The notes: generated by a model not told the origin, from the sequence alone. Numbered from the stretch's first letter, positions 1,607-31,544 are shown. The stretch is DNA of 64,000 nucleotides from an uncultured Candidatus Saccharibacteria bacterium (GCA_964416765.1 CAYQEU010000002.1:14877-78876), one strand, 5' to 3'. Program-made: numbers and translations.

Positions 1607-1619
1607 TAGGTTTTTGCTT

Positions 1620-2630: not shown

Positions 2631-2712
2631 GGGCCAGTCAGGCAAAAATAGTTGTAAATTTGGTTTCTAAAACTGCGATAACTTGCATTTATAATACTAC
2701 ATTTTAGGGCTG

Positions 2713-3182: not shown

Positions 3183-3210
3183 AAACCGCCCTTTTGGGCG
3201 GTTTTTTATT
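3183..3210. terminator. Bidirectional rho-independent terminator.
   Basis: ACCGCCC-tttt-GGGCGGT hairpin flanked by T-runs on both strands. It ends the tRNA unit on the plus strand and the minus-strand surface operon. Confidence 0.7.
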
Positions 3211-3718
3211 TAACTTCAAACTCCACTTTATTGCTGTCTTTGCCCCAAGCTGAGACATAAACCATATATTTTCCCGGGCTTACAACCAGCTCCTTTGGGC
3301 AACGTGAGCCGCTATATGAAACGTCTTGCTGACATAGAGGTGAATCGAGTTTTACTGTCATCTTTTTTGAATCATTGTCCCGGGTAGCCGCCAAATAACC
3401 TTTTTCGCCCTTCTGATTTTCAATCCAGGCCACCTTGTCCCCTTCAAACCCCAAAAAGTTACAGCCGCTAATGTTTACTTTTGTCCCTAGATTGCCCACG
3501 CGCGGAGTCATAGCCGTTATTACAGGCGCTGCCTCGGTTACGTCCTGGCAACCCGAAGGAAATTCTGCAACGCTATTTTTGTTGGAGTTGACCGGTGGCT
3601 CATTTGAATACTGGTCAAAAGGAACAACTAAAGCACTATTGTTATTCTGGTTTTGCGGCGCGCGACTGCAACTGACCGCCAATAAGGAAATTGTGAACAA
3701 CAGGATAATTTTTTTCAT
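3206..3718 (-). CDS. Lipoprotein, hypothetical (170 aa).
   Basis: Signal peptide with lipobox 'LLAVSC'. Last gene of the 11759->3206 minus-strand operon. Confidence 0.6.
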   Translation of the reverse strand: MKKIILLFTISLLAVSCSRAPQNQNNNSALVVPFDQYSNEPPVNSNKNSVAEFPSGCQDVTEAAPVITAMTPRVGNLGTKVNISGCNFLGFEGDKVAWIENQKGEKGYLAATRDNDSKKMTVKLDSPLCQQDVSYSGSRCPKELVVSPGKYMVYVSAWGKDSNKVEFEVK

Positions 3719-3720
3719 AC

Positions 3721-4911
3721 CTAAATCTTAATTTTTGCCATCTGCTTTCCGCTTATATGCGCTATCGCGGCAGTCAGCATCTTTACTTTATTGTACTCCC
3801 AGTAGGCAACCATCCCAAATAGCAGCAACATGGCTGATAACAACGCGAACAGCATCCCGTTGTTTTGCGGCGCTTGAGTAACTGCCGCGACGGGCGGGGT
3901 GGCTAGTTCAAAGTAATCGCTCGAAGTTACTATGGCATTCTTGCTTGATACCGATACCACCACCGTATATCTTCCCTCAGCTAATTGCGGCGAGGTACTA
4001 AAGGATTTTAAGTAGCTTATGTTGCCTGGCACTGCCAGAGTTTCCGCGCTTTGTATGACATCCTGGCCATTAGCATCCTGTACTTGGTATTGGACCACTA
4101 CAACGGCTGAGTGGTCTGATTGACCAATGCCGGAAAGTTTGATGGTTGCCGCGACTTCGTTTCCGGGTCGCAGCTGCTTAAACTTTTCAGGAATAGTAAC
4201 GTCAACACTATACAAATTTTTAGTGCTGCTAATGCTTGGGTTGAGATTGGCAGGTTGCTGTATTGCCTGGCCCGGCGGCAGCTCAACGGCAAAATAAAAT
4301 TGCGTAGAAGCAAAAAATTCTGGTACCTGGGTGTCTCCCACTGAAACGGTTAAAATGTGATGTCCCACGGAAACCGGTTGTGGTACCTTCCAATACCAAT
4401 CCTCGCCAACCGGTTTAACTGAGGCTTTTATGTGGTAGCTGCTGGCAATATCCAGACCGACCACGGCATTTTTGATGTTAGTTTGTCCATGAAAGGACGG
4501 GAACTGGGTATTTATGACATATTCAGTAACCTGTTGGCCATCAACAAAGATGGTGCGCGAAGTAGCGTTAGTAAGGATGATATCTGCGCTGACCCAAGGA
4601 GCCTGTAAAGACCCCGGGGGAACAGGTGTTGGGTTATTGCCAGGCGTAACCGCTGGTGATCCCCCTCCTCCTCCACCCACTATGACTTCCGGCCCTTCAT
4701 CTATGCCTAAAACATGCGCGCCCACTCCGGAATTTAAACTAGTATCAGCTTTTGCTATACCAAGCGCTGTGCCCAATATCCATGAGGTAATTAAGACAAA
4801 CGCCAAAGCCAAGAAGAACCCAGAAGTATGTACCGCGCGGTCGGTATGATGCGTTGTCCATTGCTCGGGAGCCACCCGTATTCTTTTGTGTTTTTGTCTT
4901 TTCATCAGCAC
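3721..4911 (-). CDS. Secreted/surface protein, hypothetical (396 aa).
   Basis: N-terminal TM, a G5 run, Pro-rich linker, and a hydrophobic C-terminal segment. Gap of 2 nt to the next gene. Confidence 0.55.
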   Translation of the reverse strand: MLMKRQKHKRIRVAPEQWTTHHTDRAVHTSGFFLALAFVLITSWILGTALGIAKADTSLNSGVGAHVLGIDEGPEVIVGGGGGGSPAVTPGNNPTPVPPGSLQAPWVSADIILTNATSRTIFVDGQQVTEYVINTQFPSFHGQTNIKNAVVGLDIASSYHIKASVKPVGEDWYWKVPQPVSVGHHILTVSVGDTQVPEFFASTQFYFAVELPPGQAIQQPANLNPSISSTKNLYSVDVTIPEKFKQLRPGNEVAATIKLSGIGQSDHSAVVVVQYQVQDANGQDVIQSAETLAVPGNISYLKSFSTSPQLAEGRYTVVVSVSSKNAIVTSSDYFELATPPVAAVTQAPQNNGMLFALLSAMLLLFGMVAYWEYNKVKMLTAAIAHISGKQMAKIKI

Positions 4912-4931
4912 TGCGATTTTAGTGAAATGGT

Positions 4932-7900
4932 TTAGGTTGAAGGCACAATGCTATTGTCTGTAGAGTCTGTGCTTTCAACGGCTGAAGTTTGGGCTGGGTC
5001 ACTGGAATTGGTTGGATTAGAATCGTTTTGTTCCGACCCAGACGATTCAGACGAAGCGCTGGCGCTTGAAGTATTTCCAGCAGTCGGAATGGACCGGAAT
5101 ATTTTAGGGTTCTTTACCGCAAAAGCAGTCCAGCTAAACTCTAAGTTTTCCGGGGCGGGCTTGTTTAAGACAATAGCAAACCCTTTGGCGGTTCTCTTGA
5201 TTACTGCATACTGCAGTCCTTGGTCAAACAATGATTGGACCAAAGCTTCCTGCGCACTGTCAGCATTGCTGTCATTCAATTTGCCGCCTAAGCTAAGGGT
5301 TGCGTTTACAATTGGGTTATCTAGATATTCCTTATCGAAAGTAATAGTTACCTCTTTATCTCCCTGGCTGATCTGGGCAAACCCGGCGGTGTCGGAGTTA
5401 AAGTAAGGTCGGCCAATGAACTCAACATCACTAATTAATTGGACAGAGGCCCCTAATGAGCTGATTCTATCTATCTTCAATCCTCTGCCTGAAATATTGG
5501 GAGCTACCATTTCCAAACCAGCCACCACCCGGTCGCTAGAAATTTGCATAATGGTACTTTGGGAAGAAATTTCTTCAGCCCCATTAAACCAAGCCGCCAA
5601 GTCTTCCGAATTATACTGTCTTAAAGCTTCACCGTTAACTCCAAAGTCCAACTGTGGTAACTGGGAAAGTTCTACCTCAGAACCGTCCTGAGACAAACTT
5701 AAACCATCTTGCGCGTCATCCTGCCACGAACGGTAGAAGTCAATGTCCAACTGTGAATTAGTAGCGCTGCCGCCGGTGCGTTCCTGCCACATCAGCTCCG
5801 GGGCGAGGTTGCTCCCGTAAATATTAGTACTGCTTCCCGAACCACATTCCGTGAAGTTAATACCATCAGAAGCGTTGTTGTCGATCCAGAAGCGTACGCT
5901 AGTGCTGGAACGGACTTCTACCATTAACAAGGCGTATTGAGATGTCGATACCGTTTGTCCGGTACAAACCACTGTGGTGGAGGTGCTTGCACTTCTCGTA
6001 ATACCTACCCATGTGGTTCCCAAAGTACCAGCGTTATCATTGGAAAAACCAATAAAGTTTGCGGGAGCAGTAACTTGTCCGTCGGTTTCCGTTGCCATAC
6101 CAGCGTAGATAGCACTATTCGTGTCAGCCTGGCCCGGCTTAACTTTGATTAAAATTACAGGGCGGTTCGATACGTTATACAAAAGTTTTGGGTTGTTTAT
6201 AGCTTCATCAACCATCATTAAACAACCGCTGGCCACACCGCTGGCCGCCATACGAGTAATACCATTTATCGAGTCAGCCAAACTGGAAAAAGTACAGTTA
6301 GGCGTAGTACCACCTTCATATACGCCCCAACCGCCGCCGTTTCCAAACCCAGCGTTTTGGGCGCCAGTAGTATCCGCGGTAGCGGAAGTACGTTGGCGGT
6401 TAAATTCTTCACGAATGGTACTGGTAGTGTCAATAAAGGCACCTGCAATTACCGAGGCCCCGAAGTTAGTACTTAGGTCGCGAATTTCCACCAATTTATT
6501 CGGCGTTGTGCCGCCATTCGTACATGAGGAAGAACAGTTGTCATAAAAACCCAATGCCGCCGTATCATCTGTAGCTCCGAGGCGGATTGCGGGAGTCGTA
6601 TCATCAAACTGCAAACCATAGTCATACCCGGTCCCAACACGGTAGCCAATTTCTGTACCTGCGCCGCCCGTTACGTTGGCGGCGAAGAAGGCGTTTATCG
6701 TTGAGGTAGAACCGGCTGTCGCAGTTTCAACCTTGATTCCATTTTCGGTTACTGCGGCGGCGGCGGTAGCGCCGGTCACAATACGCAATCCGCTCCATAT
6801 ACCCGCTGCTGTACCCCCAGGAGTAAGATCAACGCGCATGGCCGCAGCTTCCACGGCGGCCGAACCACCAGTATAATTGATGGACAGCGCGTTGACTCCG
6901 CCGGTAGTTACCGCTTGGCCGCTGTTGGTAATGTTTACCATGTCTTGGGTCGGAGCGCCGCTGGCGGCCACAGACAATCCAGTGACCGCGCCAGAAGTTG
7001 CGATAGAAAGCCCAGTGTCCCATCCCGTACCAATCTTAAGACCAGTACCGGTGAAGCCCGTGCCATCGGTCACATTAGCAATGTTGATTCCATTAACAGT
7101 ACAGGTTCCCGCCGGACAACTAGTAAAGGAAGGGTTAACGGAAATACCATTAACGGTTCTTGTAGCCGCGCCCCCCAACATAGTAATAGTGGGTGAAACC
7201 AACAATCCATTAGTAGTGCTGGTTACTGCATTCGAAGTGCTTTCAGAAAAAGTAATTTCGGCCAAACTTCCTGTTTCAGTTCCTGTATGGTTATAAGTTC
7301 CACTAATATCTAGTCCGCCTCCCGTAGTCATTGCGTTACCACCAACAATGCTTAAACCCGTACCCGTGGTTAAAGCAGTTCCCGATACTCTAGCAACCGT
7401 TCCAGCAGTAGTTGAGTTGGCTATCGCAGCCAGTACCCCTCCAGCCCCGCTATAGTTGGCAGAAGCGACAAATTGGGCAATCCCATTAGTCACGGCCCCT
7501 GCGGTAGCTGAGGTAACCTTAAAGACTGACCCTGAAGTAAGACCGGTCCCACTAGAAGTTACGCTTAAGGCGTCAGTAGTGGTAATTGCACCCCAATCTA
7601 AAGTCTGAGCCGTAGTCCCCATGGCGATGGAACCATTACCTGATGGGTCACCAATAACATCAAAAGCCGTCGCCCCGCCCGCTCCGCAAGATCCCCACGT
7701 CGGGGCAACCCCGGCGCTGGCGGTTTGCAGACACTGAGCTCCGGTGGAAGCGGCTGTTGCGGAAAGAGTACCATCTGTCGCGGAAACATACAGTACGGTA
7801 TTTGCTGTAGTGAACTTGCCTAACTTGATTGCAGGAGTACTGGACCCGCCGATTATGATGTTGCCGGCGTTCGTGGTGCCGATGTTGATAGCCCCGACGG

Positions 7901-9443
7901 AAGAACCGGTCCCCGCGTTGATGGATACGTCCCCTCCCGCGCCGGACACACCGGTACCGCCAAGAATGGTCAGGCCGCCTCCGGCTCCGGTTGTCGTGGC
8001 AGAGCCGCCCTTAAGATTCAACGCTCCCCCCGCTCCAGTGGAGCTAGGCGCGGAAGGCTGAATAGTCAAAGCATTGGCCGCTGCAGCCGTAACAGTGGTG
8101 ATATCGGCGGTCTGAGCTCCAGCCAAGGAAAGGACACCGCCGCTGGAGACAGTAAACTTGCTGGCGGTGTTATTCTTGAAATCGACAAAGCTGCCGCTGA
8201 ATGTTCCCGAAATATTGGCAAAGTCAAGCTTAAGGCCTGTGCCGGTGAAAGTTGAGGTATTCTGGGTCAGATTAATATAAGTGTTGGAGGTTATGGCGGA
8301 ACTGCTTGACGATATGAGCGTTTGGGACACGGCTACAGTTGCATTAATCAAATTGGTTGACGAACCAGTGGTGCCAAGTCCGACGCCAGCAAACTGCGGC
8401 GTAGCGCTCGTGTTGATGTTTTGGATCGTATTTAATGCATTAGAGGAGTTCTGTAGGTTAGTGGAGTTAAAGTTAATGAACCCGGCGTTAATAGCAGTAC
8501 CGTTCCAGGTACCAGTGGTAATTACACCTGTATTGGCAGTAACTACCAAACCGTTGTACGAAGCCGCGCCGGTTACCGCGCCGGTTAGGGCGAGGGTAGT
8601 AAAAGACCCGCCAGCAGTACAGGCAAAAGCACCGGTGGAGTTAGTGACGGTACAACCGGTTGAGGCAGAGCCCCCGCCAAGGAGGATGTCACCTGTGGAG
8701 CCGCTGGCTGTGCCAATGGTGATAGTGCCGCTGCCTTTGGCATCAATGGTCAGGTTTTCATTGGTACCGGAAGATATGGCGGACAGAGCAACTCCGCCTC
8801 CCGCGGCTGCGGAAGTAACTTTGAGTCCGGTGGCAGCAGAAACAGTTGAGGTATCCACCTGAAGGGCATAGTTTCCGGCGCTGCGGGCCACTGCCAAAGC
8901 GGTAGCCGACCCGCTAGTATTGGTTGTGTTAATGTCGCCGTCACCGGCCACACTGTTGGCTACGAGCGCGTAAGCCGCGGCTGTAATTTGCTGTCTGGGT
9001 GACATTTCACCGTCATAACCGGAACCGGAGTTAAAGTTTACGGTCAAATATACTGAACCTCCCGTAAAACTTGGCAGGGCTACATAAGTGCCCAAGGCCA
9101 CGCTAAACATCCCATTTACAAAAGCCACCTGACTGGTGCCGCCATCCCATGTTTCTGTCCATAGGAGGGTCCCGGCGCTTGCGGCATCGTACATCTTAAA
9201 CTGCATTGAATAGTTGCCGTCAGCAATGTTGGTTCCGTTGCTGCGAACGCTAATTTTACCCTGGTAATAAAGCAGTTTCGGAGTGGTGGCCTGAACGGTA
9301 TCAACGGGGACTATCAAAGAAGCAAAAACAGTTGCAAAAGCCACGACAAGCAAAATAAAAGCCGGCACGAAAACAACGCGCGGCGCATAGACACAAAATC
9401 GCATCAAAAGATGCTTTAAGATTGGCAGTAACCTGTCATCCAT
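4932..9443 (-). CDS. Giant Thr/Gly/Ser/Ala-rich beta-helical surface protein (1503 aa).
   Basis: N-terminal TM/signal. The N-terminal ~120-aa module (LWTETW...NGMFSVALG...DGEMSPR) and the C-terminal ~110-aa module are both shared with the 879-aa protein at 27253-29892. Confidence 0.8.
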   Translation of the reverse strand: MDDRLLPILKHLLMRFCVYAPRVVFVPAFILLVVAFATVFASLIVPVDTVQATTPKLLYYQGKISVRSNGTNIADGNYSMQFKMYDAASAGTLLWTETWDGGTSQVAFVNGMFSVALGTYVALPSFTGGSVYLTVNFNSGSGYDGEMSPRQQITAAAYALVANSVAGDGDINTTNTSGSATALAVARSAGNYALQVDTSTVSAATGLKVTSAAAGGGVALSAISSGTNENLTIDAKGSGTITIGTASGSTGDILLGGGSASTGCTVTNSTGAFACTAGGSFTTLALTGAVTGAASYNGLVVTANTGVITTGTWNGTAINAGFINFNSTNLQNSSNALNTIQNINTSATPQFAGVGLGTTGSSTNLINATVAVSQTLISSSSSAITSNTYINLTQNTSTFTGTGLKLDFANISGTFSGSFVDFKNNTASKFTVSSGGVLSLAGAQTADITTVTAAAANALTIQPSAPSSTGAGGALNLKGGSATTTGAGGGLTILGGTGVSGAGGDVSINAGTGSSVGAINIGTTNAGNIIIGGSSTPAIKLGKFTTANTVLYVSATDGTLSATAASTGAQCLQTASAGVAPTWGSCGAGGATAFDVIGDPSGNGSIAMGTTAQTLDWGAITTTDALSVTSSGTGLTSGSVFKVTSATAGAVTNGIAQFVASANYSGAGGVLAAIANSTTAGTVARVSGTALTTGTGLSIVGGNAMTTGGGLDISGTYNHTGTETGSLAEITFSESTSNAVTSTTNGLLVSPTITMLGGAATRTVNGISVNPSFTSCPAGTCTVNGINIANVTDGTGFTGTGLKIGTGWDTGLSIATSGAVTGLSVAASGAPTQDMVNITNSGQAVTTGGVNALSINYTGGSAAVEAAAMRVDLTPGGTAAGIWSGLRIVTGATAAAAVTENGIKVETATAGSTSTINAFFAANVTGGAGTEIGYRVGTGYDYGLQFDDTTPAIRLGATDDTAALGFYDNCSSSCTNGGTTPNKLVEIRDLSTNFGASVIAGAFIDTTSTIREEFNRQRTSATADTTGAQNAGFGNGGGWGVYEGGTTPNCTFSSLADSINGITRMAASGVASGCLMMVDEAINNPKLLYNVSNRPVILIKVKPGQADTNSAIYAGMATETDGQVTAPANFIGFSNDNAGTLGTTWVGITRSASTSTTVVCTGQTVSTSQYALLMVEVRSSTSVRFWIDNNASDGINFTECGSGSSTNIYGSNLAPELMWQERTGGSATNSQLDIDFYRSWQDDAQDGLSLSQDGSEVELSQLPQLDFGVNGEALRQYNSEDLAAWFNGAEEISSQSTIMQISSDRVVAGLEMVAPNISGRGLKIDRISSLGASVQLISDVEFIGRPYFNSDTAGFAQISQGDKEVTITFDKEYLDNPIVNATLSLGGKLNDSNADSAQEALVQSLFDQGLQYAVIKRTAKGFAIVLNKPAPENLEFSWTAFAVKNPKIFRSIPTAGNTSSASASSESSGSEQNDSNPTNSSDPAQTSAVESTDSTDNSIVPST

Positions 9444-9530
9444 TAGTATTCACAATAGGTTTTGTTTTTGTTTCGAAATGGTTCTGAACTTACGCTATTT
9501 TGGCGCAAACTCAGCAAGATTTCTAATACA

Positions 9531-9539
9531 ATTATAGCA
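9531..9539 (-). promoter_or_regulatory. Extended -10 promoter element (minus strand: AGATGTGCTATAAT).
   Basis: TRTGnTATAAT-type motif about 85 nt upstream of the 1503-aa gene start. The identical 14-mer recurs at 15937. Confidence 0.45.
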
Positions 9540-9604
9540 CATCTGAAGAAAAATTGCAAGCTAAAAAGCCGCTCTTTTTGAGAGCGGCCTCAGAAGAGGA
9601 ACTT

Positions 9605-10621
9605 TTATTTTTTTTGGGTTCGGGGTTTGCGTGTTGGCTTGTTCTGTTCCAATAGTTTTGCCATGAACCAGCGATTATATCGCCTGATCCCGTAGGTCAA
9701 CGCGAATATTACCAAGAAGAGTCCTAGAGCTATAAGCCCCACTAATTTATATGGAATAACCCAAAAACTAGTTTCAGCCCGAACGACCTGGCCCGAATCG
9801 CCATAGACCAATTCCACAGAGGCGGTATAACGGCCAAAAGCAAACTTGTCGGTCCAGGAACTTTCAAAAAGCCTTTCGCTATTCGGCAAAACATTGCTAC
9901 CATTCGGGTTCACCAGCGTGGTCCCAACCTTTTTCCCAAACATGTTCTTTATGGTAATGCTGCCCCGGGGCTTAACGTGAACGTTACCGGTGTTATGGAA
10001 GCGGGTGCGCAAGGTAACGGGTGCGCTTTCATAAACAGAGTGGGCCGGACGGAAGCTATTAATATTCCCTTCTTCGTTCGTTTTGCCCAGCTTGACCAGG
10101 ATAATAGCGGCAATCTTCTGGGATACTTCCACCGCGCTCCCCTCAACTTTAGGGGCAGTAAAGGCAAACTGGATAGAGCCATAATGGCCTCCATCCTCAG
10201 CATCGGCAGGGGCGGTAATAGTAAAGTCTATTTGGGTTTTTTCGTGAGGCTTTAAACTTAACTTAGGGTTGTTTTGAACTTTAAGCCACTTGGATAGGGC
10301 ATAAGTCTGGTCCCCTTCACCTGGTTCGTAAAAAATTTGCTGACCGTTATCACCGCCAGCAGTAAAATCCTTAATGGAAATATCAACCGGCAAAGTACGG
10401 TCCGTAGTGTTGGTCACCTCGATTGTATCCTTAAGGGTTTGTCCCCGTTCCATCTGCCGTTCCAAAATAAAGGGCGAAACGGAAAGTCCCTGGACGGGCC
10501 GGCCCGCGGCGTCGGTCTGAGCCAATGCTGAATTGGCAGACACAAACAACATACCCAATGAAGCGCAGAGAGCCAAAGCAATGGCGACTACCCGTTTCAA
10601 ATTATGGAGGTGAATTTTCAT
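9605..10621 (-). CDS. DUF916/CscA-like cell-surface protein (338 aa).
   Basis: Signal peptide 'ALALCASLGMLFVSANSALA', Ig-like beta-rich middle region, C-terminal TM plus KR-rich tail. Paralog of 32306-33283, sharing 'FAFGRYTA' and 'FWV/ILP' motifs. Confidence 0.65.
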   Translation of the reverse strand: MKIHLHNLKRVVAIALALCASLGMLFVSANSALAQTDAAGRPVQGLSVSPFILERQMERGQTLKDTIEVTNTTDRTLPVDISIKDFTAGGDNGQQIFYEPGEGDQTYALSKWLKVQNNPKLSLKPHEKTQIDFTITAPADAEDGGHYGSIQFAFTAPKVEGSAVEVSQKIAAIILVKLGKTNEEGNINSFRPAHSVYESAPVTLRTRFHNTGNVHVKPRGSITIKNMFGKKVGTTLVNPNGSNVLPNSERLFESSWTDKFAFGRYTASVELVYGDSGQVVRAETSFWVIPYKLVGLIALGLFLVIFALTYGIRRYNRWFMAKLLEQNKPTRKPRTQKK

Positions 10622-10649
10622 CTAATTAAAAAGTAACTTAATTATACCA

Positions 10650-11759
10650 TTAATATAGAGCGGAGGTGACATAACTGATGACATTTTGGTAGTCACCCGG
10701 TGGCTGCAAACCTTCCACCTCAACTTTAAATACTAAACTCGTCGATTCATTTGTAACTGGTCCGGTATTGCACGCAATTTCAGTTGGAGTTGTGGTGAGG
10801 GCGGCAAAAGTATCATTTATGGAAAACCGATTAGTGGTGCCCGTGCATAAAAGTGAGTCGGTAGTGTGATAGCCAAAACGCCCATCGGTTATGGAAAGCG
10901 GCCAGGCTGCTGGGGATGCATTGGTGGCTGAAACAGCGGGAATGGTAGTACCGTTGGTTTTGCGCAACGCACCGTCCTGGGTAATTGTAGTAGTGTAACC
11001 GGTAACAGCGTTTGTGCTGACGGTCACGGTTTGCGCCCCAATCTTAATACTGCCCACGGACAACTGGCCGAACGGTACCGTGGTGGCCGTCGTCGTCACA
11101 TTGGTCGTGGTACCGGCCACGCTGGTTCCTGAAGATACCCCGGCGACCGTCATAGTCAAACTTGGGTTGCTGGTTGTGGCGCTGGCAATATTGGAATAGC
11201 CCGACTCGTTGTTCGGCCCTAAGCGCGCTTTCACCTTTATTTTATAGGTAGTGTTGGGGGACAGGCCAATCAAGCGCTCCCCACTGCCGCTGCCCCAGCC
11301 GGCGTAGTCCTGCCAGACTTCAGTGGCGCTGGTAATGGTATCATCCGCTTTAACAAATGTGGTGGTGGTAAAATTATCCGATGAAATCGCGATGGCAAAC
11401 TGCGTATCGGAGGCGTTGCCGCCCGTGGCAATAACAAAATCCAAATTAGCGTAGAGCGTACTCCCGGTGTTGGTAAGCGTGGGCACACCGGGCACACCCG
11501 GGAAAATGGGCGGGATGGCTCCGCTCTGGACCTGGTAGTTAGTAGAGTTCGAGGTTCCCGATGCGGTACCGGTGGCATCTTGTGCCCGGTAGGTCGCGGA
11601 GTTTCGGTTACCGCCGCCAGTGGAAAACGACGGGTTTTCAATTTGGTAATTGCCGCTCTGTAGCACCAACGCAAAGACGACCTGCGGGTTTAGAATTATG
11701 GTTGCCAATATTACCAGAGCGGTATATAAGGTTGTGTACTTTTCGGTTTTGTTTCTCAT
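10650..11759 (-). CDS. WxL-like secreted surface protein (370 aa).
   Basis: Start trimmed to the ATG at 11759, giving signal peptide 'MRNKTEKYTTLYTALVILATIILNPQVVFA'. C-terminus '...PGDYQNVISYVTSALY'. Paralog of 12627-13925. Confidence 0.65.
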   Translation of the reverse strand: MRNKTEKYTTLYTALVILATIILNPQVVFALVLQSGNYQIENPSFSTGGGNRNSATYRAQDATGTASGTSNSTNYQVQSGAIPPIFPGVPGVPTLTNTGSTLYANLDFVIATGGNASDTQFAIAISSDNFTTTTFVKADDTITSATEVWQDYAGWGSGSGERLIGLSPNTTYKIKVKARLGPNNESGYSNIASATTSNPSLTMTVAGVSSGTSVAGTTTNVTTTATTVPFGQLSVGSIKIGAQTVTVSTNAVTGYTTTITQDGALRKTNGTTIPAVSATNASPAAWPLSITDGRFGYHTTDSLLCTGTTNRFSINDTFAALTTTPTEIACNTGPVTNESTSLVFKVEVEGLQPPGDYQNVISYVTSALY

Positions 11760-11801
11760 TCGCGAATAGGCAAAATGCGCATTAATACTACCATAAACTA
11801 A

Positions 11802-11810
11802 TGATATAAT
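11802..11810 (+). promoter_or_regulatory. Extended -10 promoter (TGaTATAAT) for a leaderless transcript.
   Basis: TATAAT at 11805-11810, only 7 nt before the ATG at 11818. Confidence 0.4.
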
Positions 11811-11817
11811 AAACATT

Positions 11818-12528
11818 ATGAGGGCCACGAAAAAAGAAACAAAAACCAAAAAACCTAACGTCACAGCTTTTGACCCAAACCTGTCACTGTACTGGTCGCG
11901 GCGCAGGTTAGTGATCACAATCATGGTGTGCGTGGCGCTGAGCCTGTTCGCGGTATTCACTTTTCTCGTTATCGCCCAGTACCGCAAGATTGAGGACGCG
12001 ACGGAAACGAGCGGACCGGAAAAAATCGCCGCACCCGAATTTAAGCATTATGCCAACCAGTACTGGGGTGTTGAATTCGACTATCCGGGCAAATGGACCC
12101 AGCCAATCGGCTCATACCAAGACGGGGAGTATTATTTTTCATCCGAACCCATCAACTTCATCAATGAATTAGAGGCCGGGGAGGCTATAATAGCCCTTAA
12201 GACCTATAATAACTGGAAAGGTCTCTCCTTTGGCGATTGGTTCGGGGAAAACCGCTACCTGTTCTTGCCATCGGGTGAGCTTAGCGCTCCGCGAGCTGAA
12301 ACCGTAGCCGGCGTACCAGCCCAGAGGTACACGCTTCGCCTAAGCAAGCCCCAAAATAATACCGCAGTGTGGGATATCCTATTGGTTTCCCGCAACCAGG
12401 CCACAAAGTATTTCTTTGCTCTGGAAGCTGACAACGATGACAATTTAAAGAAATACCAGCCTGTGTTTGATACGCTCCTTACTTCCCTGGCTTTTACCAA
12501 AGTCGGCAACAATCCCAACGGACAATAA
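11818..12528 (+). CDS. Membrane-anchored hypothetical protein (236 aa).
   Basis: Lys-rich N-terminus, one TM, extracytoplasmic domain. Divergent from the WxL-like gene. Confidence 0.55.
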   Translation: MRATKKETKTKKPNVTAFDPNLSLYWSRRRLVITIMVCVALSLFAVFTFLVIAQYRKIEDATETSGPEKIAAPEFKHYANQYWGVEFDYPGKWTQPIGSYQDGEYYFSSEPINFINELEAGEAIIALKTYNNWKGLSFGDWFGENRYLFLPSGELSAPRAETVAGVPAQRYTLRLSKPQNNTAVWDILLVSRNQATKYFFALEADNDDNLKKYQPVFDTLLTSLAFTKVGNNPNGQ

Positions 12529-12551
12529 TAATTTACAAATCACCCGTTTTA

Positions 12552-12560
12552 TGCTATACT
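12552..12560 (+). promoter_or_regulatory. Extended -10 promoter (TGCTATACT).
   Basis: Lies 67 nt upstream of the 12627 ATG. The same 9-mer recurs at 14002. A small hairpin TTCCC-acaa-GGGAA sits in the 5'UTR. Confidence 0.4.
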
Positions 12561-12626
12561 TAATGGGTAATAATTACTTTTCCCACAAGGGAAATCCAGA
12601 AATAAACAAAAAATTAATAAATATAG

Positions 12627-13925
12627 ATGAAAATCTCCCTTCGAAGCCCGTTTAAGTTCGTTTCCGCGGTTTTAGTGGTCTTTTTGTTGGCCATGATCGC
12701 GCAAAAAGTCGCCCAAACCAATGCGGTCGGGAACATGACGCTATCAAAAGACACGCTTTCCAATTCCCGCCCCAGCGTTAGCACCACACTCGGTGCTGGC
12801 GTAACGGCTGGCGATACCGCCATTACCTTGGCTTCTTCCACGGGGATTTTGGCTGGGGATGTAATTACCCTTGCCGGTGGTACCCCGGAAAACCTAACCG
12901 TAGCCACAGTCACGGACGCAACCCACGTTGCCACTACTACCGCAGCAGCTAATGCCCACTCTAACGCCACAGCCGTCTATGACAAACAAACCTCGGTACA
13001 TACCTTTAGCTTTACTACCCGCTCCGCTGTTGCCAGCGGCAGCTTCCTTATAACTTTCCCGGTAGCCGGCTCCAACCAAAACGATGGTGTGCCAGATGCC
13101 GTGCACCAGTATGACTTTAACTCATTAGCTGGTACCGACGTTTCCGTTACTGGCTTTACCGCTGGAACCAAAACCATTACCGCTTCGGCCGGTACCGTAA
13201 GTATTGCCTTTTCCAGCTCTATTGCCGCTTCCACGGCAATTACTATTACCGTTGGTAGCACCAACAAACTATTAAACCCGCAGAAGAGCGCTTCTGCCGG
13301 TACTGCTGATATCGACGCCATCCGCGTGGACGAAAAGGATGCCAATGGCGTGGTAGATACTTCCAGCGTTGATGTAGGAATTATCGAATCACAGGTTATT
13401 ACCGTAAGTGTGTCCCCGACTTTGAGCTTCACCATTGCCGGCGTCGCTTCCGGCCAGACCGCTTTCGGCGCGACAAATACCAACGTAACTACTACAGCTA
13501 CAACGGTACCATTCGGCTCTATTAGCACCGCCACTCCATATTACGCGGCACAAGACCTTACAGTTAGCACCAACGCTGTGAGCGGATATAACGTAACGGG
13601 ATTCGAAGACGGCGCCCTGCGCAAAACCAACGGTACTACCATAACTGATTTCTCTACTACTCCTGGTGACAACAACGGTAACGATGGATTCGGCTACTCC
13701 GGACGTTCTACTTCCGGGACTGACTGTTCGGTGGTATACAATACTTCAGGCTCATTCTACTCCCGCGGCTTCGGTACTTCCGGTACTCCTGGCGGAGTTA
13801 TGACTAACGCTGGCCCTGTTTCCGGTTCTGTCTGCCGCGTTATCTACCGCGTGAGAGTCCCCGCCACCCAGGCTCCTGGAGACTACCAGAACGTAGTCAC
13901 CTACATCGCCACGCCGAGCTACTAA
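12627..13925 (+). CDS. WxL-like secreted surface protein (432 aa), paralog of 10650-11759.
   Basis: Signal peptide. Shared motifs 'TTNVTTTATTVPFG' and 'GALRKTNGTTI'. C-terminal '...PGDYQNVVTYIATPSY'. Confidence 0.7.
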   Translation: MKISLRSPFKFVSAVLVVFLLAMIAQKVAQTNAVGNMTLSKDTLSNSRPSVSTTLGAGVTAGDTAITLASSTGILAGDVITLAGGTPENLTVATVTDATHVATTTAAANAHSNATAVYDKQTSVHTFSFTTRSAVASGSFLITFPVAGSNQNDGVPDAVHQYDFNSLAGTDVSVTGFTAGTKTITASAGTVSIAFSSSIAASTAITITVGSTNKLLNPQKSASAGTADIDAIRVDEKDANGVVDTSSVDVGIIESQVITVSVSPTLSFTIAGVASGQTAFGATNTNVTTTATTVPFGSISTATPYYAAQDLTVSTNAVSGYNVTGFEDGALRKTNGTTITDFSTTPGDNNGNDGFGYSGRSTSGTDCSVVYNTSGSFYSRGFGTSGTPGGVMTNAGPVSGSVCRVIYRVRVPATQAPGDYQNVVTYIATPSY

Positions 13926-13950
13926 TGGCGCTCCTCCAAACCTTCGATAC

Positions 13951-13979
13951 CGCCCCACCTTCCGTGGGGCGGTTTTTTA
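13951..13979 (+). terminator. Rho-independent terminator.
   Basis: CGCCCCAC-cttcc-GTGGGGCG followed by TTTTTT. Confidence 0.8.
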
Positions 13980-17414: not shown

Positions 17415-20400
17415 TTACGGGCTGGCGCTGCCGCCACCGCCACTGCCGCCACCGCCACCTGAAACGCCGCCGAAAGTTACTGTGGGCGCTGAGGTGTAAT
17501 TCATCCCGCCATTAGTAACATTTATCGCGGTAATCACATCGCCGGTCAGTACCGCCACAGCAGCTGCGCCCGTCCCTCCCCCATCGATAAAGTTTACTAC
17601 GGGGGCAATACCATAACTACTTCCTCCACATACCATGGTAACGGAAGTCACATGGTCCCCGGTGAGTATTGCTATTGCTATGGCGCTATTGCCACAGATG
17701 CCACCATTGCCGTCTGAACTGCCCCCGCCGGAGGAATTGCCGCTGCTGCCGCTGCCGCCTCCAGTGGGACCCCCGCCGCCGCCGTAAGAAACAAAGCCCC
17801 AACAGCTGCCATTATTTCCAATATTCACCAAGGTACCGTCATTGGTTATTGTAAATACTCCGCTGCAGCCGCTATCTTGCACGGAAAGATAAGAAAAGGA
17901 TGCAGTACCTGAAAGATCCATTAACCATTGCTGGCCCGGCGTATCTGAGCTTAAGGCTATAGGTCTTCCGGAAGTTCCCGTGACGGTTATACTATTTGCA
18001 AATGTGTAAGTCTTTCCGGCTTTAAATGTAAGAATTGAATTATCCGTAGTATCCGCGAAGTCATAAAAAGTTGTATCTGAGCTACCACCAACACTAGCCA
18101 CTCCTGTGGTACTGTTCGGTATTATAGTCACGCTACCATTGTTATGCGTAAACGTGCCGCTATTGCTAAGGTTCCCGGTAACAGTTAGGTTTGCCGGCGC
18201 AACAAATGTCCCGTTTGATATAGTTAATTCTCCGCCAAGGGTCGTTACTCCGGTTAAGGTGAGGGTACCGCTGCCAAGTTTGGTAAGACCAGCTGCTGAG
18301 CCAACCGTTCCGGCGAAGCTTACATCATTCCCATTGGTATCAATTATGGCTGTTTGGGTTAGCGTTACGGCTCTGTTAACAGGGGAAGTGATGTTGCCGG
18401 ATGCCTGCAAGGTTCCGCCATTAAAAATCAAAGTGTTGTTAACACCCCCGCTGCCCAGAGCAGCAGTCGCGTTTGCGACAATTGTGCCACCGCTGAGAGT
18501 TAGACTTCCTGTGAACGTATTGGCCCCAGAAAGCGTAAGAGTACCAGCACCGTCCTTAGTTAAGGTGCCGCTCGTAGTAGCAATGGCCCCGGTAATGGTG
18601 GTATCGCCCGCACCGCCAACAATTAGACTGCGCGCGTTGCCCGAAACTGAGGGGATAGTGAGTGACCCGCTGTCCGAATTTACACGAACCCCGGAAGAAC
18701 CAAGCGTTAGGGTTGCTTGAATAGCATTAGTATCACTAATGTTCCGTATCGCGCCAACATTATTTACTCCAGTACCGTTAGCAGTTATCAATTTGGTGCT
18801 TGGCAGGGTAATATTGCCCTGCAACTCCATTACCGCGCCTGATGTAATTGTTGTGGTAAGCGTGGTGCCGGACGCTCCCAACGCGTTGCTATTCTGCAGG
18901 TTGAGGTAGCCAGCGCTTAAAGCAATAGAAGTGCTCGTAAATGTATTGTCAGCGGATAAAGTAACCCTGCCCCCGGTGGTTTTGGAAATTCCTGCGGCAA
19001 CTGAACCTCCCAGTCGGGCGCTGACTAGGCCGCTTTGCAGGGCCGCGGTACCTGTTGTGGTCAAAACCGCGGTTGTTCCACCGGAATCTATTATTTGCCC
19101 GTCAGTTTGGAGGGTTATTATGCCGACGCTGTCGGAAATATTATTTAAGTCCAGAACTCCATTTACAACTGTTACGGCTCCGGTAGAAAGCATATTGGCT
19201 ACGCCATACTGCAAGGTTCCACCGCTAACAGTGGTTAACCCAGTGTGCCCCTGAGCGGAGGTGAACACAAGCGTGCCTGGGCCTGACTTGGTAATTGGCG
19301 CCGTTGTTACGGTTCCCGCTCCGCCCCAAGTGAGAACGGTACCCGGATTGGTAATGTCAAAGGTTGCGGCGATAGCGTTGGTGGTGGTGTAGGAGCGGTC
19401 AGTTGAAGCAGAACCGCCAGTATATTGCAGCGTTCCTACGGCTGTGTTAAATACGATATTGCCCGCTGCATTACTGGCTTGGCCAAGGTTGCCGGCCACG
19501 CCTCCGTTTCCAATAGTGCTGACACTTAAAGTTCCACCACTGATTGTGGTTATCCCGCTGTAAGTGTTAGTTCCGGCCAAAGTTACGGTCCCAGTAGTCG
19601 TCTTGGTCAAGTTTACAGCCCCTGCCAGGTTTGCGGTAATAGTGCCACTGGCCACTGCGTAAGAGCTTCCGGTAAAGGTTCCAGAACCGATGATGAATCC
19701 GCTGGTTAACGTTAATGTACCCAGCGTATCAGTGTAGGACTGAATATCCAGGGTGCCTCCCGCCACTGTTACCGCCGCCGAATCATTTATGATATTACTT
19801 GCCAAATATTGAACTGTGCCGGCATTAATAGTCAGCGTGCCCGTATTAGCAAATGTTTTGCTCAAAGTCAGTGAATCACCAGTACTCTTAGTCATGGCGA
19901 TTGCCGTGCCGCCCAACACCCCGCTAATACCACCGCCATAAAAAGTGTAGGCCGTGCCAGTAAGGACTCCCGGTGTACCGTTGCTGTCAGTAATCGTGCC
20001 GCCGTTTTGTATCGTTATGGCACCCACACTGTCAGTGTTACCATTGATATCAAGTATGCCACCGGCCACAGTGACAGCACCGGTGTTAATTGCGTTGGAG
20101 GTGCCATATTGTAAAGTCCCGCCGTTAATACGTGTTAAGCCGGTAGTGGTAGATGATCCGCTTAAAATTAAAGTGCCCGAGTCCCATTTAGTTAAAGTTG
20201 CTGAGGTCGCTGACGCCCCAAAAGACCCGGATATTGTAGTGGGACCACTGCCTCCCACTCCTAAGTTAATGGCGTTGGCTATCGTAACTGTACCAGTGAT
20301 ATTGATTGTCCCGCTGCCGTTGTTTGTAATGAGCGAGTTCGTGCTAACGGTCATGGCGCCGAAGTTATTATCGCTTCCGGCCGAACTGATTAAGGCCCCT

Positions 20401-27236: not shown

Positions 27237-27252
27237 TGGGTTGATGTGCAAT

Positions 27253-30263: not shown

Positions 30264-31544
30264 TTAAAGGAGAAGGGTCAGCAAAATACAGACAGCAAGC
30301 AATAAACTACTTAAAACTGCCGTAATTATGAGGAAATTGTGGTAATTGCCAGTTTTTTCTACGGCATTAGCGCCTATTTCCAAGGCTGGCACCAGCCTTT
30401 TTCTGATTTCAAATTGTCCGGACACTGTTTGAATGAGCTTTTTGGAATCGTCAAACAGATTAATTGCGTATGTGTACGTTCCGGGTGGAAAATTCGGCAG
30501 CGTTACCTCAAAAGTTTGGTTGCTCTTATTAACTGAAAACAGGTACATATATTCGGGTCCGGACAATTCCCTGCTTTTAACAGCAATAATTATGCTTGAA
30601 GTTGCTTGGGGCACGCTTGTTATGGGAATCGAAATCGTCAGATTGGATAATTCCGGTACCACAGCGCTAAAAGGATCCAAGGAATGTATGCCATGGTCAT
30701 AGGTAAAGATGAAGTTTTTGAGTTCGACCGGCAAAGCAGGCTTGGTTGCGGCGGGAATAAATTTAGTATCAACCACGGGGGCCCTCACTTGCCCGCTATT
30801 CTCGCTGTACCAAAGGATTATGGCGGTTACAAGAGACCCAGAAGAATAATTGCCGGCATGGTCGCGGGAAAACACCGTGTAGTAATATAGCACGCCTGGG
30901 TTGGCGGTATTGTCTTCTATGGCAAGATGATTGCCCTCATAAATCACCTGACCGTTAAGGGGGTCCAGAGGGAAAAATCTGTCAGAACGGACCACCCGGA
31001 CAGCCTCAAAATCTTTCTCGGGCGGGGCAGTCCATGACAAACTAATCCGATCGTTTAATGCTGTGGCCACCAAGTTTGAAACATTCGAGGGGGGCGTGGT
31101 ATCCGGCGCCAACGTTGTAGTAAACTTTTCCGAATAGAATACAGACCGGCCATAGGGGTCTGTGGCAACTATTTGGTAATAGTAATTGGTGCCCGGTTTT
31201 AAGTCCGGGATAAAAGCGGAGTCTTCTTTTGTAAACTGCTCGGTGCTAACCTGGCCGTCCGAATATTCAGTGTTTCTGCCCCATAGGACGCGAACCAGAC
31301 TGACAATGCTGGTATGCCAGGAAACAATCGCGCTGTCTGATTTGGCCTCCACAGAGACATTGTATATTTGATTAGGCTCTGTACCTGTCCCACCCCCGCC
31401 GCCGTTGTTATTGGGAGGAGCATTCCCAAGAATAGGCTGAGTAACATTTAGGCTGCCCGTGGCGGCGAGTGTAATTAAAGGCAGACAGAGAGCACTTAAA
31501 ACAAAAAAACCCAGCACCAGGGTTTTGGCCAAACGACTTCCCAT
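30264..31544 (-). CDS. Fibronectin type III-domain surface protein with a C-terminal TM anchor (426 aa).
   Basis: Signal peptide. Two FN3-like units ('YNVSVEAKSDSAIVSWH...GTNYYYQIVATDPYG', 'SNLVATALNDRISLSWTAPP...YYYTVFSRDHAGN'). C-terminal 'LIITAVLSSLLLAVCILLTLLL'. Confidence 0.7.
   Translation of the reverse strand: MGSRLAKTLVLGFFVLSALCLPLITLAATGSLNVTQPILGNAPPNNNGGGGGTGTEPNQIYNVSVEAKSDSAIVSWHTSIVSLVRVLWGRNTEYSDGQVSTEQFTKEDSAFIPDLKPGTNYYYQIVATDPYGRSVFYSEKFTTTLAPDTTPPSNVSNLVATALNDRISLSWTAPPEKDFEAVRVVRSDRFFPLDPLNGQVIYEGNHLAIEDNTANPGVLYYYTVFSRDHAGNYSSGSLVTAIILWYSENSGQVRAPVVDTKFIPAATKPALPVELKNFIFTYDHGIHSLDPFSAVVPELSNLTISIPITSVPQATSSIIIAVKSRELSGPEYMYLFSVNKSNQTFEVTLPNFPPGTYTYAINLFDDSKKLIQTVSGQFEIRKRLVPALEIGANAVEKTGNYHNFLIITAVLSSLLLAVCILLTLLL

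What the first reader, a model, noticed from the sequence alone, without database searches (positions are those of the whole stretch)
9531..13979. Second, independently arranged WxL-like/DUF916-like module upstream of another giant surface protein
A 370-aa WxL-like gene (10650-11759) and a 338-aa DUF916-like gene (9605-10621) sit directly upstream of the 1503-aa giant, the 396-aa protein and the lipoprotein. A divergent paralogous WxL-like gene (12627-13925) has its own extended -10 promoter and terminator. Both long WxL-like paralogs share 'TTNVTTTATTVPFG', 'GALRKTNGTTI' and the C-terminal 'PGDYQNV(I/V)(S/T)Y(V/I)'. The repeated pairing of WxL-like + DUF916-like + giant protein in two loci argues for a functional unit rather than chance adjacency. 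The terminal 'GDYxxT..V' strand also resembles the C-terminus of SCPU/Csu pilin subunits, so a donor-strand-type assembly is an alternative hypothesis.
Basis: partly seen in the sequence, partly recalled or inferred. Interest (0 to 1): 0.7.

Follow-up and report, generated by a model that had tools for sequence, protein, structure and literature searches.

The report
Pam-like donor-strand pilus gene module
This is a real, conserved gene module of an ultrasmall (CPR/Patescibacteria) bacterium that most likely builds a thin surface filament of the recently described "Pam" type; its membrane-anchored helper protein belongs to the same family as the WxL-interacting proteins of Gram-positive bacteria.

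Summary
The paralogy is far beyond chance (BLASTP 4e-24 for the two long proteins, 1e-37 for the two DUF916-like proteins).

In 40 related genomes, 37 keep a DUF916-like gene within 200 nt downstream of the 369-aa gene. A homologous giant gene usually follows.

The label "DUF916-like" is correct: Pfam PF06030 scores above its cut-off, and hhalign against a Bacillus DUF916+DUF3324 protein gives 97% probability across both domains. The label "WxL-like" is not supported: no WxL HMM hit, and hhalign probability is 2% or less.

The long proteins are instead distant, sub-threshold relatives of the Pam pilins of CPR bacteria (NCBIfam NF058581 and NF058579; Troman et al., 2026 preprint). Those pilins polymerise by donor-strand exchange with membrane-anchored chaperones and no usher. 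Paralogues in related operons pass NCBI's Pam pilin cut-off.

The kind is already described; this is a divergent variant. One point is new as far as I could find: the chaperone is a WxLIP/DUF916 protein.

The parts
10650..11759 (-). Pilin-like protein P370 (369 aa). It has a signal peptide, a conserved N-terminal triple S-x-N-Y motif (residues 30-85, PamT-like), an Fn3-like domain (94-195), a linker strand (about 198-210, LTMTVAGV) and a Pam-like C-terminal Ig-like domain (213-369) with a Cys305/Cys330 pair.
   Evidence: AF2 model: pLDDT 79.6 overall, above 90 in the CTD, and below 50 in the N-terminal motif. NCBIfam NF058581 E=0.0087. Of 43 family members, 34 hit PamT NF058579 and 23 hit NF058581. 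Foldseek gives Fn3 hits. 290 homologues at 50-70% identity, all 'hypothetical'; the few hits that carry an organism name are Patescibacteria/Doudnabacteria MAGs.
9605..10621 (-). Membrane-anchored chaperone-like protein C338. It has a signal peptide, two Ig-like domains of the WxLIP (DUF916+DUF3324) family, a C-terminal TM helix (about 293-314) and a basic tail. Architecturally it matches PamC/PamD.
   Evidence: Pfam PF06030 E=6.6e-12, 46 bits against a cut-off of 27.3. 28 of 43 family members hit PF06030. PDB EfmWxLIP1 at E=4e-5. hhalign 97.1%, 211 columns across both domains. TM segment.
12627..13925 (+). Divergently transcribed pilin-like paralogue P432. It has a signal peptide, a different N-terminal beta-rich domain, a linker (LSFTIAGV) and a Pam-like CTD with a Cys367/Cys403 pair. 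It is monocistronic.
   Evidence: NF058581 E=6.5e-5 over model positions 2-148. Orthologues reach E=1.4e-11, 44.7 bits. BLASTP to P370 4e-24. Weak collinear similarity to an above-cut-off Pam pilin, L002 P355.
12532..12560 (+). Sigma-70-like promoter with an extended -10 for the 432-aa gene.
13949..13973 (+). Intrinsic-terminator-like hairpin plus T-run after the 432-aa gene.
11818..12528 (+). Conserved 236-aa signal-anchored protein between the two divergent pilin genes. Role unknown; it gives a weak PsbP_2-like hit.
   Evidence: Conserved at the same position in L001, L011, L028 and L029. Pfam E=0.0024, below cut-off.
4932..9443 (-). Giant 1503-aa secreted protein. It probably corresponds to the 'tail fibre-like protein' that the Pam preprint finds next to pam operons. 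Its N-terminal (30-320) and C-terminal (1290-1500) modules are conserved and the middle varies.
   Evidence: Homologous giants lie downstream of the chaperone gene in 23 of 31 related loci. No pilin CTD detected in it.
9531..9559 (-). Promoter-like site upstream of the giant gene (TTGCAA-17-TATAAT preceded by TG).
3721..4911 (-). 396-aa protein with a signal peptide, a short N-terminal strand, a Gly-rich linker, Ig-like domains and a C-terminal TM helix. Candidate PamR-like filament terminator or membrane anchor.
   Evidence: Architecture from the sequence. Big_13 E=1.5e-5, just below cut-off. Homologues follow the giant in L001, L034 and L039.
3206..3718 (-). 170-aa lipoprotein-like protein with a weak TIG/IPT hit; last gene of the run. 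Membership in the module is uncertain.
   Evidence: no homologue in the other loci.
33288..33938 (-). Locus 2: 216-aa protein consisting of the pilin CTD only.
   Evidence: Aligns with the CTDs of the long proteins; Cys pair.
32306..33283 (-). Locus 2: DUF916-like chaperone paralogue (325 aa, C-terminal TM helix).
   Evidence: BLASTP 1e-37 to C338. PF06030 E=2.3e-4, below cut-off.
31547..32302 (-). Locus 2: 251-aa PamT-like protein (S-x-(S/N)-Y motif plus CTD).
   Evidence: NF058579 E=1.5e-11, 44 bits against a cut-off of 240.
30264..31544 (-). Locus 2: 426-aa protein with a signal peptide, an N-terminal strand, a Gly-rich linker, Fn3 domains and a C-terminal TM helix. PamR-like architecture.
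   Evidence: Pfam fn3 E=4.6e-6; TM segments; PamR as described in the preprint.
17415..29892 (-). Locus 2: 879-aa protein (related to the 1503-aa giant) and a 3293-aa giant protein, downstream of the pilus-like genes.

Best explanation
The region encodes a divergent Pam-type pilus module of a CPR (Patescibacteria) bacterium.

Shown by the sequence:
- All components carry N-terminal signal sequences.
- The two long proteins, and the two short ones in locus 2, end in a shared C-terminal domain of about 150 aa that is predicted to be Ig-like and holds one Cys pair.
- The 338-aa protein has two Ig-like domains of the WxLIP/DUF916 family and stays in the membrane through a C-terminal helix.

Inferred from homology and the literature:
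- After Sec export, the anchored chaperone caps the incomplete Ig fold of each subunit with one of its own strands.
- Subunits then polymerise by donor-strand exchange, with the linker strand of the incoming subunit (LTMTVAGV / LSFTIAGV) replacing the chaperone strand. No usher or outer membrane is involved.
- The 432-aa protein has its own promoter and a strong terminator, so it is the likely major shaft subunit.
- The 369-aa protein carries the PamT-like N-terminal motif and an Fn3-like domain, so it is a tip-proximal or second subunit.
- The 396-aa protein (N-terminal strand, Gly linker, Ig domains, C-terminal TM helix) is the likely PamR-like terminator and anchor.

Speculative: the co-conserved giant tail-fibre-like protein is a companion adhesin.
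For: (1) HMM links to the Pam models:
- P432 hits NF058581 at E=6.5e-5 across the whole model, and P370 at E=0.0087.
- Of 43 P370-family members, 23 hit NF058581 and 34 hit PamT NF058579, best E=1.2e-12.
- P432 orthologues reach 44.7 bits.
- Paralogues in related operons (the same P-C-giant module, though not this window's exact gene order) pass NCBI's curated cut-off: L002 84.6 bits and L003 56.9 bits against 55.

(2) The chaperone has the PamC/D architecture of two beta domains plus a C-terminal TM helix (preprint). For its Firmicute relatives, AF2 predicts that a DUF916 hairpin inserts into the partner domain (PMC10599100).

(3) Structure:
- The AF2 model shows a beta-sandwich, a linker strand, then the CTD.
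- 17 of the top 60 matches are donor-strand pilins, including the FimH pilin domain, FimA, PapG, Csu and CS20.

(4) PamR-like proteins are present in both loci.

(5) Gene linkage is tight across about 45 genomes, including Microgenomates OLB22, a class in which the preprint finds Pam.

(6) Each CTD has a Cys pair, as in PamA/B.
Against: - The window's own proteins score below NCBIfam's curated cut-offs: 23 and 16 bits against 55, and 44 against 240.
- I could not obtain the M. amalyticus PamA-E/C/D/R/T sequences or the PDB entries 25PZ/25QA. The link therefore runs through NCBIfam models and neighbouring paralogues, not a direct comparison.
- No multimer prediction could be run, so no donor strand or chaperone-subunit interface was shown for these proteins.
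- The NTD of P370 is Fn3-like rather than the nine-strand sandwich described for PamA/B.
- P370 is evenly and highly conserved (50-70% identity), which is unusual for an exposed tip protein.
- No NCBIfam model matched the chaperone family.
Confidence: 0.65

Rival explanations
1. A WxL-cluster-like, non-filamentous surface complex. The membrane-anchored DUF916/WxLIP protein binds and stabilises each partner protein one-to-one at the cell surface, as proposed for WxLIP-WxL in enterococci and lactobacilli. The complex displays the Fn3 domain and perhaps docks the giant protein, with no polymerisation.
For: - C338 is a WxLIP-family protein by Pfam, by a solved-structure sequence match and by hhalign.
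- Many related genomes show strict P-C-P-C gene pairing, which fits dedicated one-to-one partners.
- A weak collinear profile signal to WxL (P 0.025-0.036, against 0.35-0.75 for a reversed control) places 'GY(T/N)' under the first WxL motif and the C-terminal strand under the second.
- A WxL-WxLIP complex has been solved (PDB 9i25).
Against: - There is no significant WxL HMM or profile match.
- There are no Trp-x-Leu motifs at the aligned positions and no LPXTG partner.
- HMM similarity points to the Pam pilins, which form filaments (preprint).
- PamR-like terminator/anchor proteins are hard to explain without a filament.
Confidence: 0.2
2. A classical or archaic chaperone-usher pilus (Csu/SCPU type), as the reader's C-terminal motif comparison suggested.
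Against: - No PapD_N/PapD_C, usher or SCPU Pfam hit in any protein scanned in either locus.
- The chaperone is membrane-anchored and belongs to a different family.
Confidence: 0.03
3. Unrelated secreted proteins that lie next to each other by chance, with similarity due to Thr/Ser-rich composition.
For: The proteins are Thr/Ser/Gly-rich, which can inflate similarity scores.
Against: - Composition-adjusted BLASTP still gives 4e-24 and 1e-37.
- Cys, Gly, Tyr and Phe positions are invariant.
- Gene linkage is conserved in about 45 genomes.
Confidence: 0.02

Closest known systems
Pam pilus system of CPR bacteria (PamA/B/E/T pilins, PamC/D membrane-anchored chaperones, PamR anchor). Source: Troman et al., bioRxiv 10.64898/2026.03.03.709456; NCBIfam NF058579 and NF058581.
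   Same: - CPR host and Sec-exported subunits.
- Subunits are built as an N-terminal beta-sandwich, a linker, then a C-terminal Ig-like domain with a Cys pair.
- The chaperone has two beta domains and a C-terminal TM helix.
- A PamT-like N-terminal motif and PamR-like proteins are present.
- There is no usher.
- A giant 'tail fibre-like' protein lies next to the operon.
   Different: - The window's proteins fall below both NCBIfam cut-offs.
- P370 combines the PamT-like motif with an Fn3-like domain.
- The gene order differs: one pilin gene is divergent and monocistronic, and the giant sits between the chaperone and the anchor.
- The nearest named relatives are Doudnabacteria-type MAGs, not the Saccharimonadia/Microgenomatia emphasised in the preprint.
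- No ATP-synthase neighbourhood was found among the genes scanned.
WxL gene clusters of Firmicutes (Csc clusters: small and large WxL proteins, WxLIP = DUF916+DUF3324+TM, LPXTG protein). Sources: Siezen 2006; Hassan & Williamson 2022/2023.
   Same: - The helper protein is homologous across both domains and shares the C-terminal TM helix.
- A small and a large partner protein are encoded beside it.
- The large partners carry host-binding-type N-terminal domains.
- For WxLIP, AF2 predicts strand insertion into the partner.
   Different: - The partner proteins give no significant WxL-domain match and have no Trp-x-Leu motifs.
- There is no LPXTG protein.
- The host is CPR, not Firmicutes.
- WxL proteins are described as peptidoglycan-bound, not filament-forming.
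Chaperone-usher pili (Fim/Pap; archaic Csu/CupE) and other donor-strand fibres (TasA/TapA, archaeal bundling pili, environmental TLP-1 fibrils).
   Different: There is no sequence relationship, no usher and no PapD-family chaperone. The chaperone here is membrane-anchored.

Membership tests
Pam pilus system (CPR) | Pilin C-terminal domain matching NCBIfam NF058581 at or above its curated cut-off (55 bits) | tested here: not met
   P432 scores 23.1 bits (E=6.5e-5) and P370 16.2 bits (E=0.0087). P432 orthologues reach at most 44.7 bits. Paralogues in related operons do pass: L002 84.6 and L003 56.9 bits.
Pam pilus system (CPR) | Two-domain subunit: N-terminal beta-sandwich, single linker strand, C-terminal Ig-like domain | tested here: met
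   The AF2 model of P370 shows an Fn3-like domain at 94-195, a strand at 201-207 and a CTD at 213-369. The NTD is Fn3-like, not the nine-strand sandwich of PamA/B.
Pam pilus system (CPR) | Polymerisation by donor-strand exchange (linker strand completes the neighbour's CTD) | not testable with these tools
Pam pilus system (CPR) | Operon-encoded chaperone with two beta domains and a C-terminal transmembrane helix (PamC/PamD) | tested here: met
   C338 has a signal peptide, two Ig-like domains and a TM helix at 285-314 followed by a basic tail. Sequence homology to PamC/D themselves was not tested because their sequences were not obtainable.
Pam pilus system (CPR) | PamT tip subunit (NF058579, cut-off 240 bits) | tested here: not met
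   P251 scores 44 bits, E=1.5e-11, matching only model positions 3-129. 34 of 43 P370-family members match, best E=1.2e-12.
Pam pilus system (CPR) | PamR-like anchor: N-terminal strand, tandem FnIII/Ig domains, C-terminal TM helix | tested here: inconclusive
   F426 (fn3 E=4.6e-6, C-terminal TM helix) and B396 (Big_13 E=1.5e-5, C-terminal TM helix) have the architecture. No model or sequence of PamR was available for comparison.
Pam pilus system (CPR) | Restricted to CPR bacteria | tested here: inconclusive
   The homologues that carry an organism name are Patescibacteria MAGs (Doudnabacteria, Microgenomates and MAGs labelled Saccharibacteria). However, about 12 confirmed full-length loci (32-39% identity) come from MAGs labelled uncultured Gammaproteobacteria or Pseudomonadales. 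I suspect these labels are coarse or wrong, but I did not check them.
WxL gene cluster (Firmicutes) | At least one WxLIP: DUF916 (PGBD) + DUF3324 (HBD) + C-terminal TM helix | tested here: met
   PF06030 scores 46 bits against 27.3. hhalign is 97.1% across both domains of a Bacillus DUF916+DUF3324 protein. TM helix present. Pfam PF11797 itself gave no hit.
WxL gene cluster (Firmicutes) | At least two WxL-domain proteins (PF13731) within four genes of the WxLIP | tested here: not met
   None of the four window proteins hits PF13731. 1 of 43 family members hits it, at E=0.34. hhalign probability is 0.4-1.9%. A WxL HMM finds no P protein.
WxL gene cluster (Firmicutes) | Dual Trp-x-Leu motif in the partner domain | tested here: not met
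   The positions aligned to the motifs read GYT(T) and SYV(T) in P370. The short locus-2 proteins have W-x-V, but elsewhere in the domain.
Chaperone-usher pili (including Csu/SCPU) | PapD-family chaperone, outer-membrane usher, SCPU/fimbrial Pfam domain in the subunits | tested here: not met
   No such Pfam hits in any protein scanned in either locus. Only fold-level similarity of the CTD was found.

The most novel reading that the evidence does not exclude
The WxL/WxLIP clusters of Firmicutes, the similar DUF916 loci seen here on Actinobacteria and Deinococcus plasmids, and the Pam pili of CPR bacteria are branches of one ancient, usher-less system of bacteria without a classical outer membrane. 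In this system a membrane-anchored DUF916/DUF3324 protein acts as a donor-strand chaperone. WxL domains and Pam pilin CTDs would then be homologous acceptor domains. This window's module, with a WxLIP-family chaperone next to Pam-like pilins, is the link between the two. It would follow that enterococcal and lactobacillar WxL proteins may be strand-complemented, perhaps oligomeric, assemblies rather than simple peptidoglycan binders.
Probability: 0.35. Interest if true: 0.75.

Novelty: new variant of a known kind. Interest (0 to 1): 0.5.

Why it matters
CPR bacteria are thought to live attached to host cells, and how they attach is largely unknown. This module is widespread and highly conserved. 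Current NCBIfam cut-offs miss it.

Recognising it as a Pam-type donor-strand pilus extends that system to further CPR lineages and architectures. It also ties the pilus to the giant surface proteins typical of these genomes.

The homology of its chaperone to WxLIP/DUF916 connects a newly described CPR pilus with a long-known but mechanistically unclear surface-protein cluster implicated in virulence of Gram-positive bacteria. Neither literature appears to have made this connection.

Tried and rejected
- PDB sequence searches found no pilus or WxL entry. I tried P432, the 216-aa protein and the CTD profile.
- Foldseek of the full-length P370 model returned only Fn3 hits. I therefore modelled the CTD alone.
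- The afdb50 fold library was not installed. The nearest predicted structures, WxL or otherwise, could not be checked.
- I tried to reach the M. amalyticus Pam proteins through homology searches with P370 and with the above-cut-off Pam pilin L002 P355. Only close 'hypothetical' CPR relatives were listed. The preprint's supplement holds no sequences.
- Profile-profile tests of the CTD against WxL were not significant. I used three different CTD profiles and local and greedy modes. Probabilities were 0.4-1.9% and P-values 0.025-0.15, with reversed controls at 0.35-0.75.
- A search for a pilin CTD inside the giant proteins found none.
- LPXTG motifs: none.
- Per-region conservation of P370 showed no special peak at the linker or the N-terminal motif. 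It does not identify the donor strand.
- Hit ids beyond the listed rows of the plasmid search could not be fetched.
- I considered and dropped the longer TTG start at 11987 for P370.
- I also dropped the idea that TLP-1 fibrils are from CPR bacteria. Their nearest predicted relative is from a Flavobacteriales bacterium.

Full report
**Observation.**
They are 9605-10621(-) at 338 aa, 10650-11759(-) at 369 aa, and 12627-13925(+) at 432 aa.
- The ATG at 11759 is the supported start, because M1 is nearly invariant in 43 homologues.
- The two DUF916-like proteins of the window are 31% identical (E=1e-37).
- All four pilin-like proteins (369, 432, 251 and 216 aa) align over a C-terminal domain of about 150 aa. 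It has invariant T-V-x-T, G-Y, F-G and G-x-Y positions and exactly two Cys each.
- A promoter-like site with an extended -10 (12532-12560) and a strong terminator hairpin (13949-13973) flank the 432-aa gene. Another promoter-like site (9559-9531, minus strand) precedes the giant gene.

**Setting.** The window carries a 16S rRNA gene, scattered tRNAs and PilM/PilO genes. Homologues that carry an organism name come from Patescibacteria MAGs, mostly labelled Doudnabacteria or 'Saccharibacteria', plus Microgenomates OLB22. About 12 weaker loci come from MAGs labelled Gammaproteobacteria or Pseudomonadales. I suspect those labels are coarse but did not check them. I take this to be a CPR genome.

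**Is the adjacency meaningful?** Yes.
- I fetched 62 loci from GTDB species representatives and several long metagenome contigs, then labelled their ORFs with local jackhmmer profiles.
- The commonest layout is pilin-like (~355 aa), DUF916-like (~345 aa), pilin-like (~368 aa, the window's P370 type), DUF916-like (~320 aa), sometimes a third DUF916-like gene, then a giant protein.
- Of 40 P370 orthologues with enough flank, 37 have a DUF916-like gene within 200 nt downstream.
- 23 of 31 have a homologous giant within 4 kb, and 38 of 42 have another pilin-like gene within 5 kb.
- Parts of the window's own arrangement (a divergently transcribed ~430-457-aa pilin gene and the 236-aa gene next to the P370-type gene) recur in four other loci. 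L001 alone shows the whole layout, including the giant and the 396-aa-type protein; L028 and L029 also keep the chaperone gene downstream.

**The DUF916-like protein.**
- Pfam PF06030 (WxLIP_PGBD, formerly DUF916) scores 46 bits against a gathering cut-off of 27.3. 28 of 43 family members hit it.
- The family profile matches the solved EfmWxLIP1 chains (9i25_C, 9i1y_A) at E=4e-5.
- hhalign against a Bacillus tropicus 'DUF916 and DUF3324 domain-containing protein' from a canonical WxL cluster gives 97.1% probability. The E-value is 6e-11 over 211 columns, covering both domains.
- With its signal peptide, C-terminal TM helix and basic tail, the protein has the full WxLIP architecture described by Hassan et al. 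2023 (PMC10599100).

**The 'WxL-like' proteins.** They are not demonstrably WxL.
- Pfam WxL (PF13731) hits none of the four window proteins and 1 of 43 relatives, at E=0.34.
- A WxL HMM built from 35 genuine WxL proteins finds none of the roughly 100 pilin-like ORFs, and the CTD HMM finds no WxL protein.
- hhalign gives 0.4-1.9% probability.
- The greedy alignment is collinear. It puts 'TVSTNAxxGYT' under 'VQVTDkRGxxGWTL' and the last strand under 'G.Y..TLTWTL'. It also scores better than a reversed control (P 0.025-0.036 against 0.35-0.75).
- That is a hint, not evidence of homology.

**What they are instead.**
- NCBIfam (release of June 2026) holds two models, NF058581 'Pam pilus system pilin subunit' and NF058579 'CPR-type pilus protein PamT'.
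- P432 matches NF058581 end to end at E=6.5e-5, P370 at E=0.0087, and the 251-aa locus-2 protein matches PamT at E=1.5e-11.
- Across the P370 family, 34 of 43 members match PamT (best E=1.2e-12, through the N-terminal motif) and 23 of 43 match the pilin CTD model (best E=3e-7).
- Five of six P432 orthologues match NF058581, at up to 44.7 bits.
- All of these are below the curated cut-offs, so NCBI's pipeline would call the proteins hypothetical.
- The upstream paralogues in related operons do pass the cut-off: L002 at 84.6 bits and L003 at 56.9 bits, against 55. The operon type is therefore a pam-type operon by NCBI's own criterion.

**What the models derive from.** They come from Troman et al. 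(bioRxiv 10.64898/2026.03.03.709456).
- Cryo-EM of Ca. Mycosynbacter amalyticus filaments showed two pilins, PamA and PamB. [quoted passage not shown]
- The operon also encodes PamC/PamD chaperones that are FimC/PapD-like in fold but carry a C-terminal TM helix.
- It further encodes a CTD-only tip protein, PamT, and PamR, an RbmA-like protein with an N-terminal strand and a C-terminal TM helix.
- A 'tail fibre-like protein' is central in the conserved neighbourhood.

**Structure.**
- The AF2 model of P370 has a mean pLDDT of 79.6. It shows a signal helix, a conserved but disordered N-terminal segment (residues 28-81, three S-x-N-Y repeats), an Fn3-like domain (94-195), a linker strand (201-207) and a confident CTD.
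- Foldseek of the whole model sees only Fn3 domains.
- Foldseek finds nothing at E<=1e-3.
- The fold evidence is therefore consistent with a donor-strand pilin domain but is not decisive alone.

**Other parts.**
- The 396-aa protein downstream of the giant, and the 426-aa Fn3 protein of locus 2, share one layout. It runs: signal peptide, short N-terminal strand, Gly-rich linker, Ig/Fn3 domains, C-terminal TM helix. This matches the preprint's description of PamR.
- The giants share N-terminal (30-320) and C-terminal (1290-1500) modules and contain no pilin CTD. Their link to the pilus is genetic only.

**Mechanism proposed.**
- *Shown:* export signals, the shared CTD with its Cys pair, the WxLIP-family membrane-anchored two-domain protein, and conserved operon linkage.
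- *Inferred from homology:* the anchored chaperone caps the subunit CTD, and subunits polymerise by donor-strand exchange without an usher.
- *Inferred subunit roles:* P432 is the major subunit. P370 is a PamT-related subunit carrying an Fn3 domain. The 396-aa protein terminates and anchors the filament.
- *Speculative:* the giant is a companion adhesin.
- Which segment of P370 is donated, the linker or the N-terminal motif, is unresolved. Conservation does not discriminate between them.

**Comparison and novelty.**
- The kind is known: the Pam pilus was described in a 2026 preprint and has NCBIfam models.
- This locus is a divergent variant. Its proteins are sub-threshold, its NTD is Fn3-like and fused to the PamT-type motif, and its gene order and lineage differ.
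- It is not a WxL cluster, because no WxL domains are present. It is not a chaperone-usher system, because there is no usher and no PapD-family chaperone.
- One point seems new. The Pam-type chaperone family is the WxLIP/DUF916-DUF3324 family. The preprint does not mention WxL or DUF916, and my literature searches found no paper making the link.
- Similar layouts (small secreted protein, DUF916 protein, sometimes a large protein) also occur on Deinococcus and Arthrobacter plasmids.
- This permits, but does not prove, a common origin of WxL clusters and Pam pili.

**Verdict.** Interest is moderate. The kind is already described, but this variant has one unifying lead worth testing.

Noticed in passing
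window 35550-37013 (-); tRNAs at 2763-2839 and 3096-3171 (+): A complete 16S rRNA gene with no 23S rRNA gene detected in the window. tRNA-Ile and tRNA-Ala lie about 32 kb away on the other strand, so the rRNA genes are unlinked. ORFs listed inside 35550-37064 are spurious.
   Followed up: no
window 414-2645 (-): Type IV pilus assembly genes (PilM at E=3e-44, a PilO-like gene and a PilN-like gene) lie a few kb from the Pam-like module. The genome therefore encodes two kinds of filament system side by side, and the same adjacency occurs in L001.
   Followed up: partly
window 14539-15810 (-); L001:6174-7484; L069:2594-3874: A CAP-domain (SCP/PR-1-like) secreted protein sits beside the module here and in L001. 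On an Arthrobacter plasmid a CAP-domain gene also lies just upstream of a small secreted protein and a DUF916 gene.
   Followed up: no
L046:9506-11920 (+): A single 804-aa ORF contains both a pilin-like part and a DUF916-like part. It is either a natural pilin-chaperone fusion, which would argue for physical interaction, or an assembly frameshift.
   Followed up: no
L063:4951-7374; window 10650-11759 residues 30-85; window 31547-32302 residues 28-80: The N-terminal triple S-x-N-Y motif (S-x-S-Y in the 251-aa protein) is predicted disordered in the P370 monomer model yet is conserved. It also heads an 807-aa Fn3-array protein in another uncultured bacterium, so it behaves as a portable module of unknown role.
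   Followed up: partly
L068 (Deinococcus sp. NW-56 plasmid) 3941-9514: The layout is the same outside CPR and Firmicutes: a 292-aa secreted protein, a DUF916-like 298-aa protein (tblastn E=8e-5 to C338), a 190-aa protein and a 1013-aa protein, all annotated as hypothetical.
   Followed up: partly
PDB 9i25 (chains A and C), 9i1y: A solved complex containing a 'WxL domain surface protein' and EfmWxLIP1 exists in the PDB. No paper describing it is in the held library. It would show directly whether WxLIP complements WxL by strand insertion.
   Followed up: partly
L002:12348-12527; L003:12435-12635; L004:13475-13675: A small HTH_17/MerR-type gene sits between the last chaperone gene and the giant gene in several related operons. 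It is absent from the window, where a promoter-like site occupies that gap.
   Followed up: no
L002, L009, L012, L013, L016, L019, L020, L022, L035, L036, L040: In many related genomes the pilin-chaperone operon lies immediately downstream of two large genes of about 1160 and 1290 aa. These were identified as rpoB and rpoC by Pfam only in L002 (same contig as L020); for the others the assignment rests on ORF size. The window does not share this placement.
   Followed up: no
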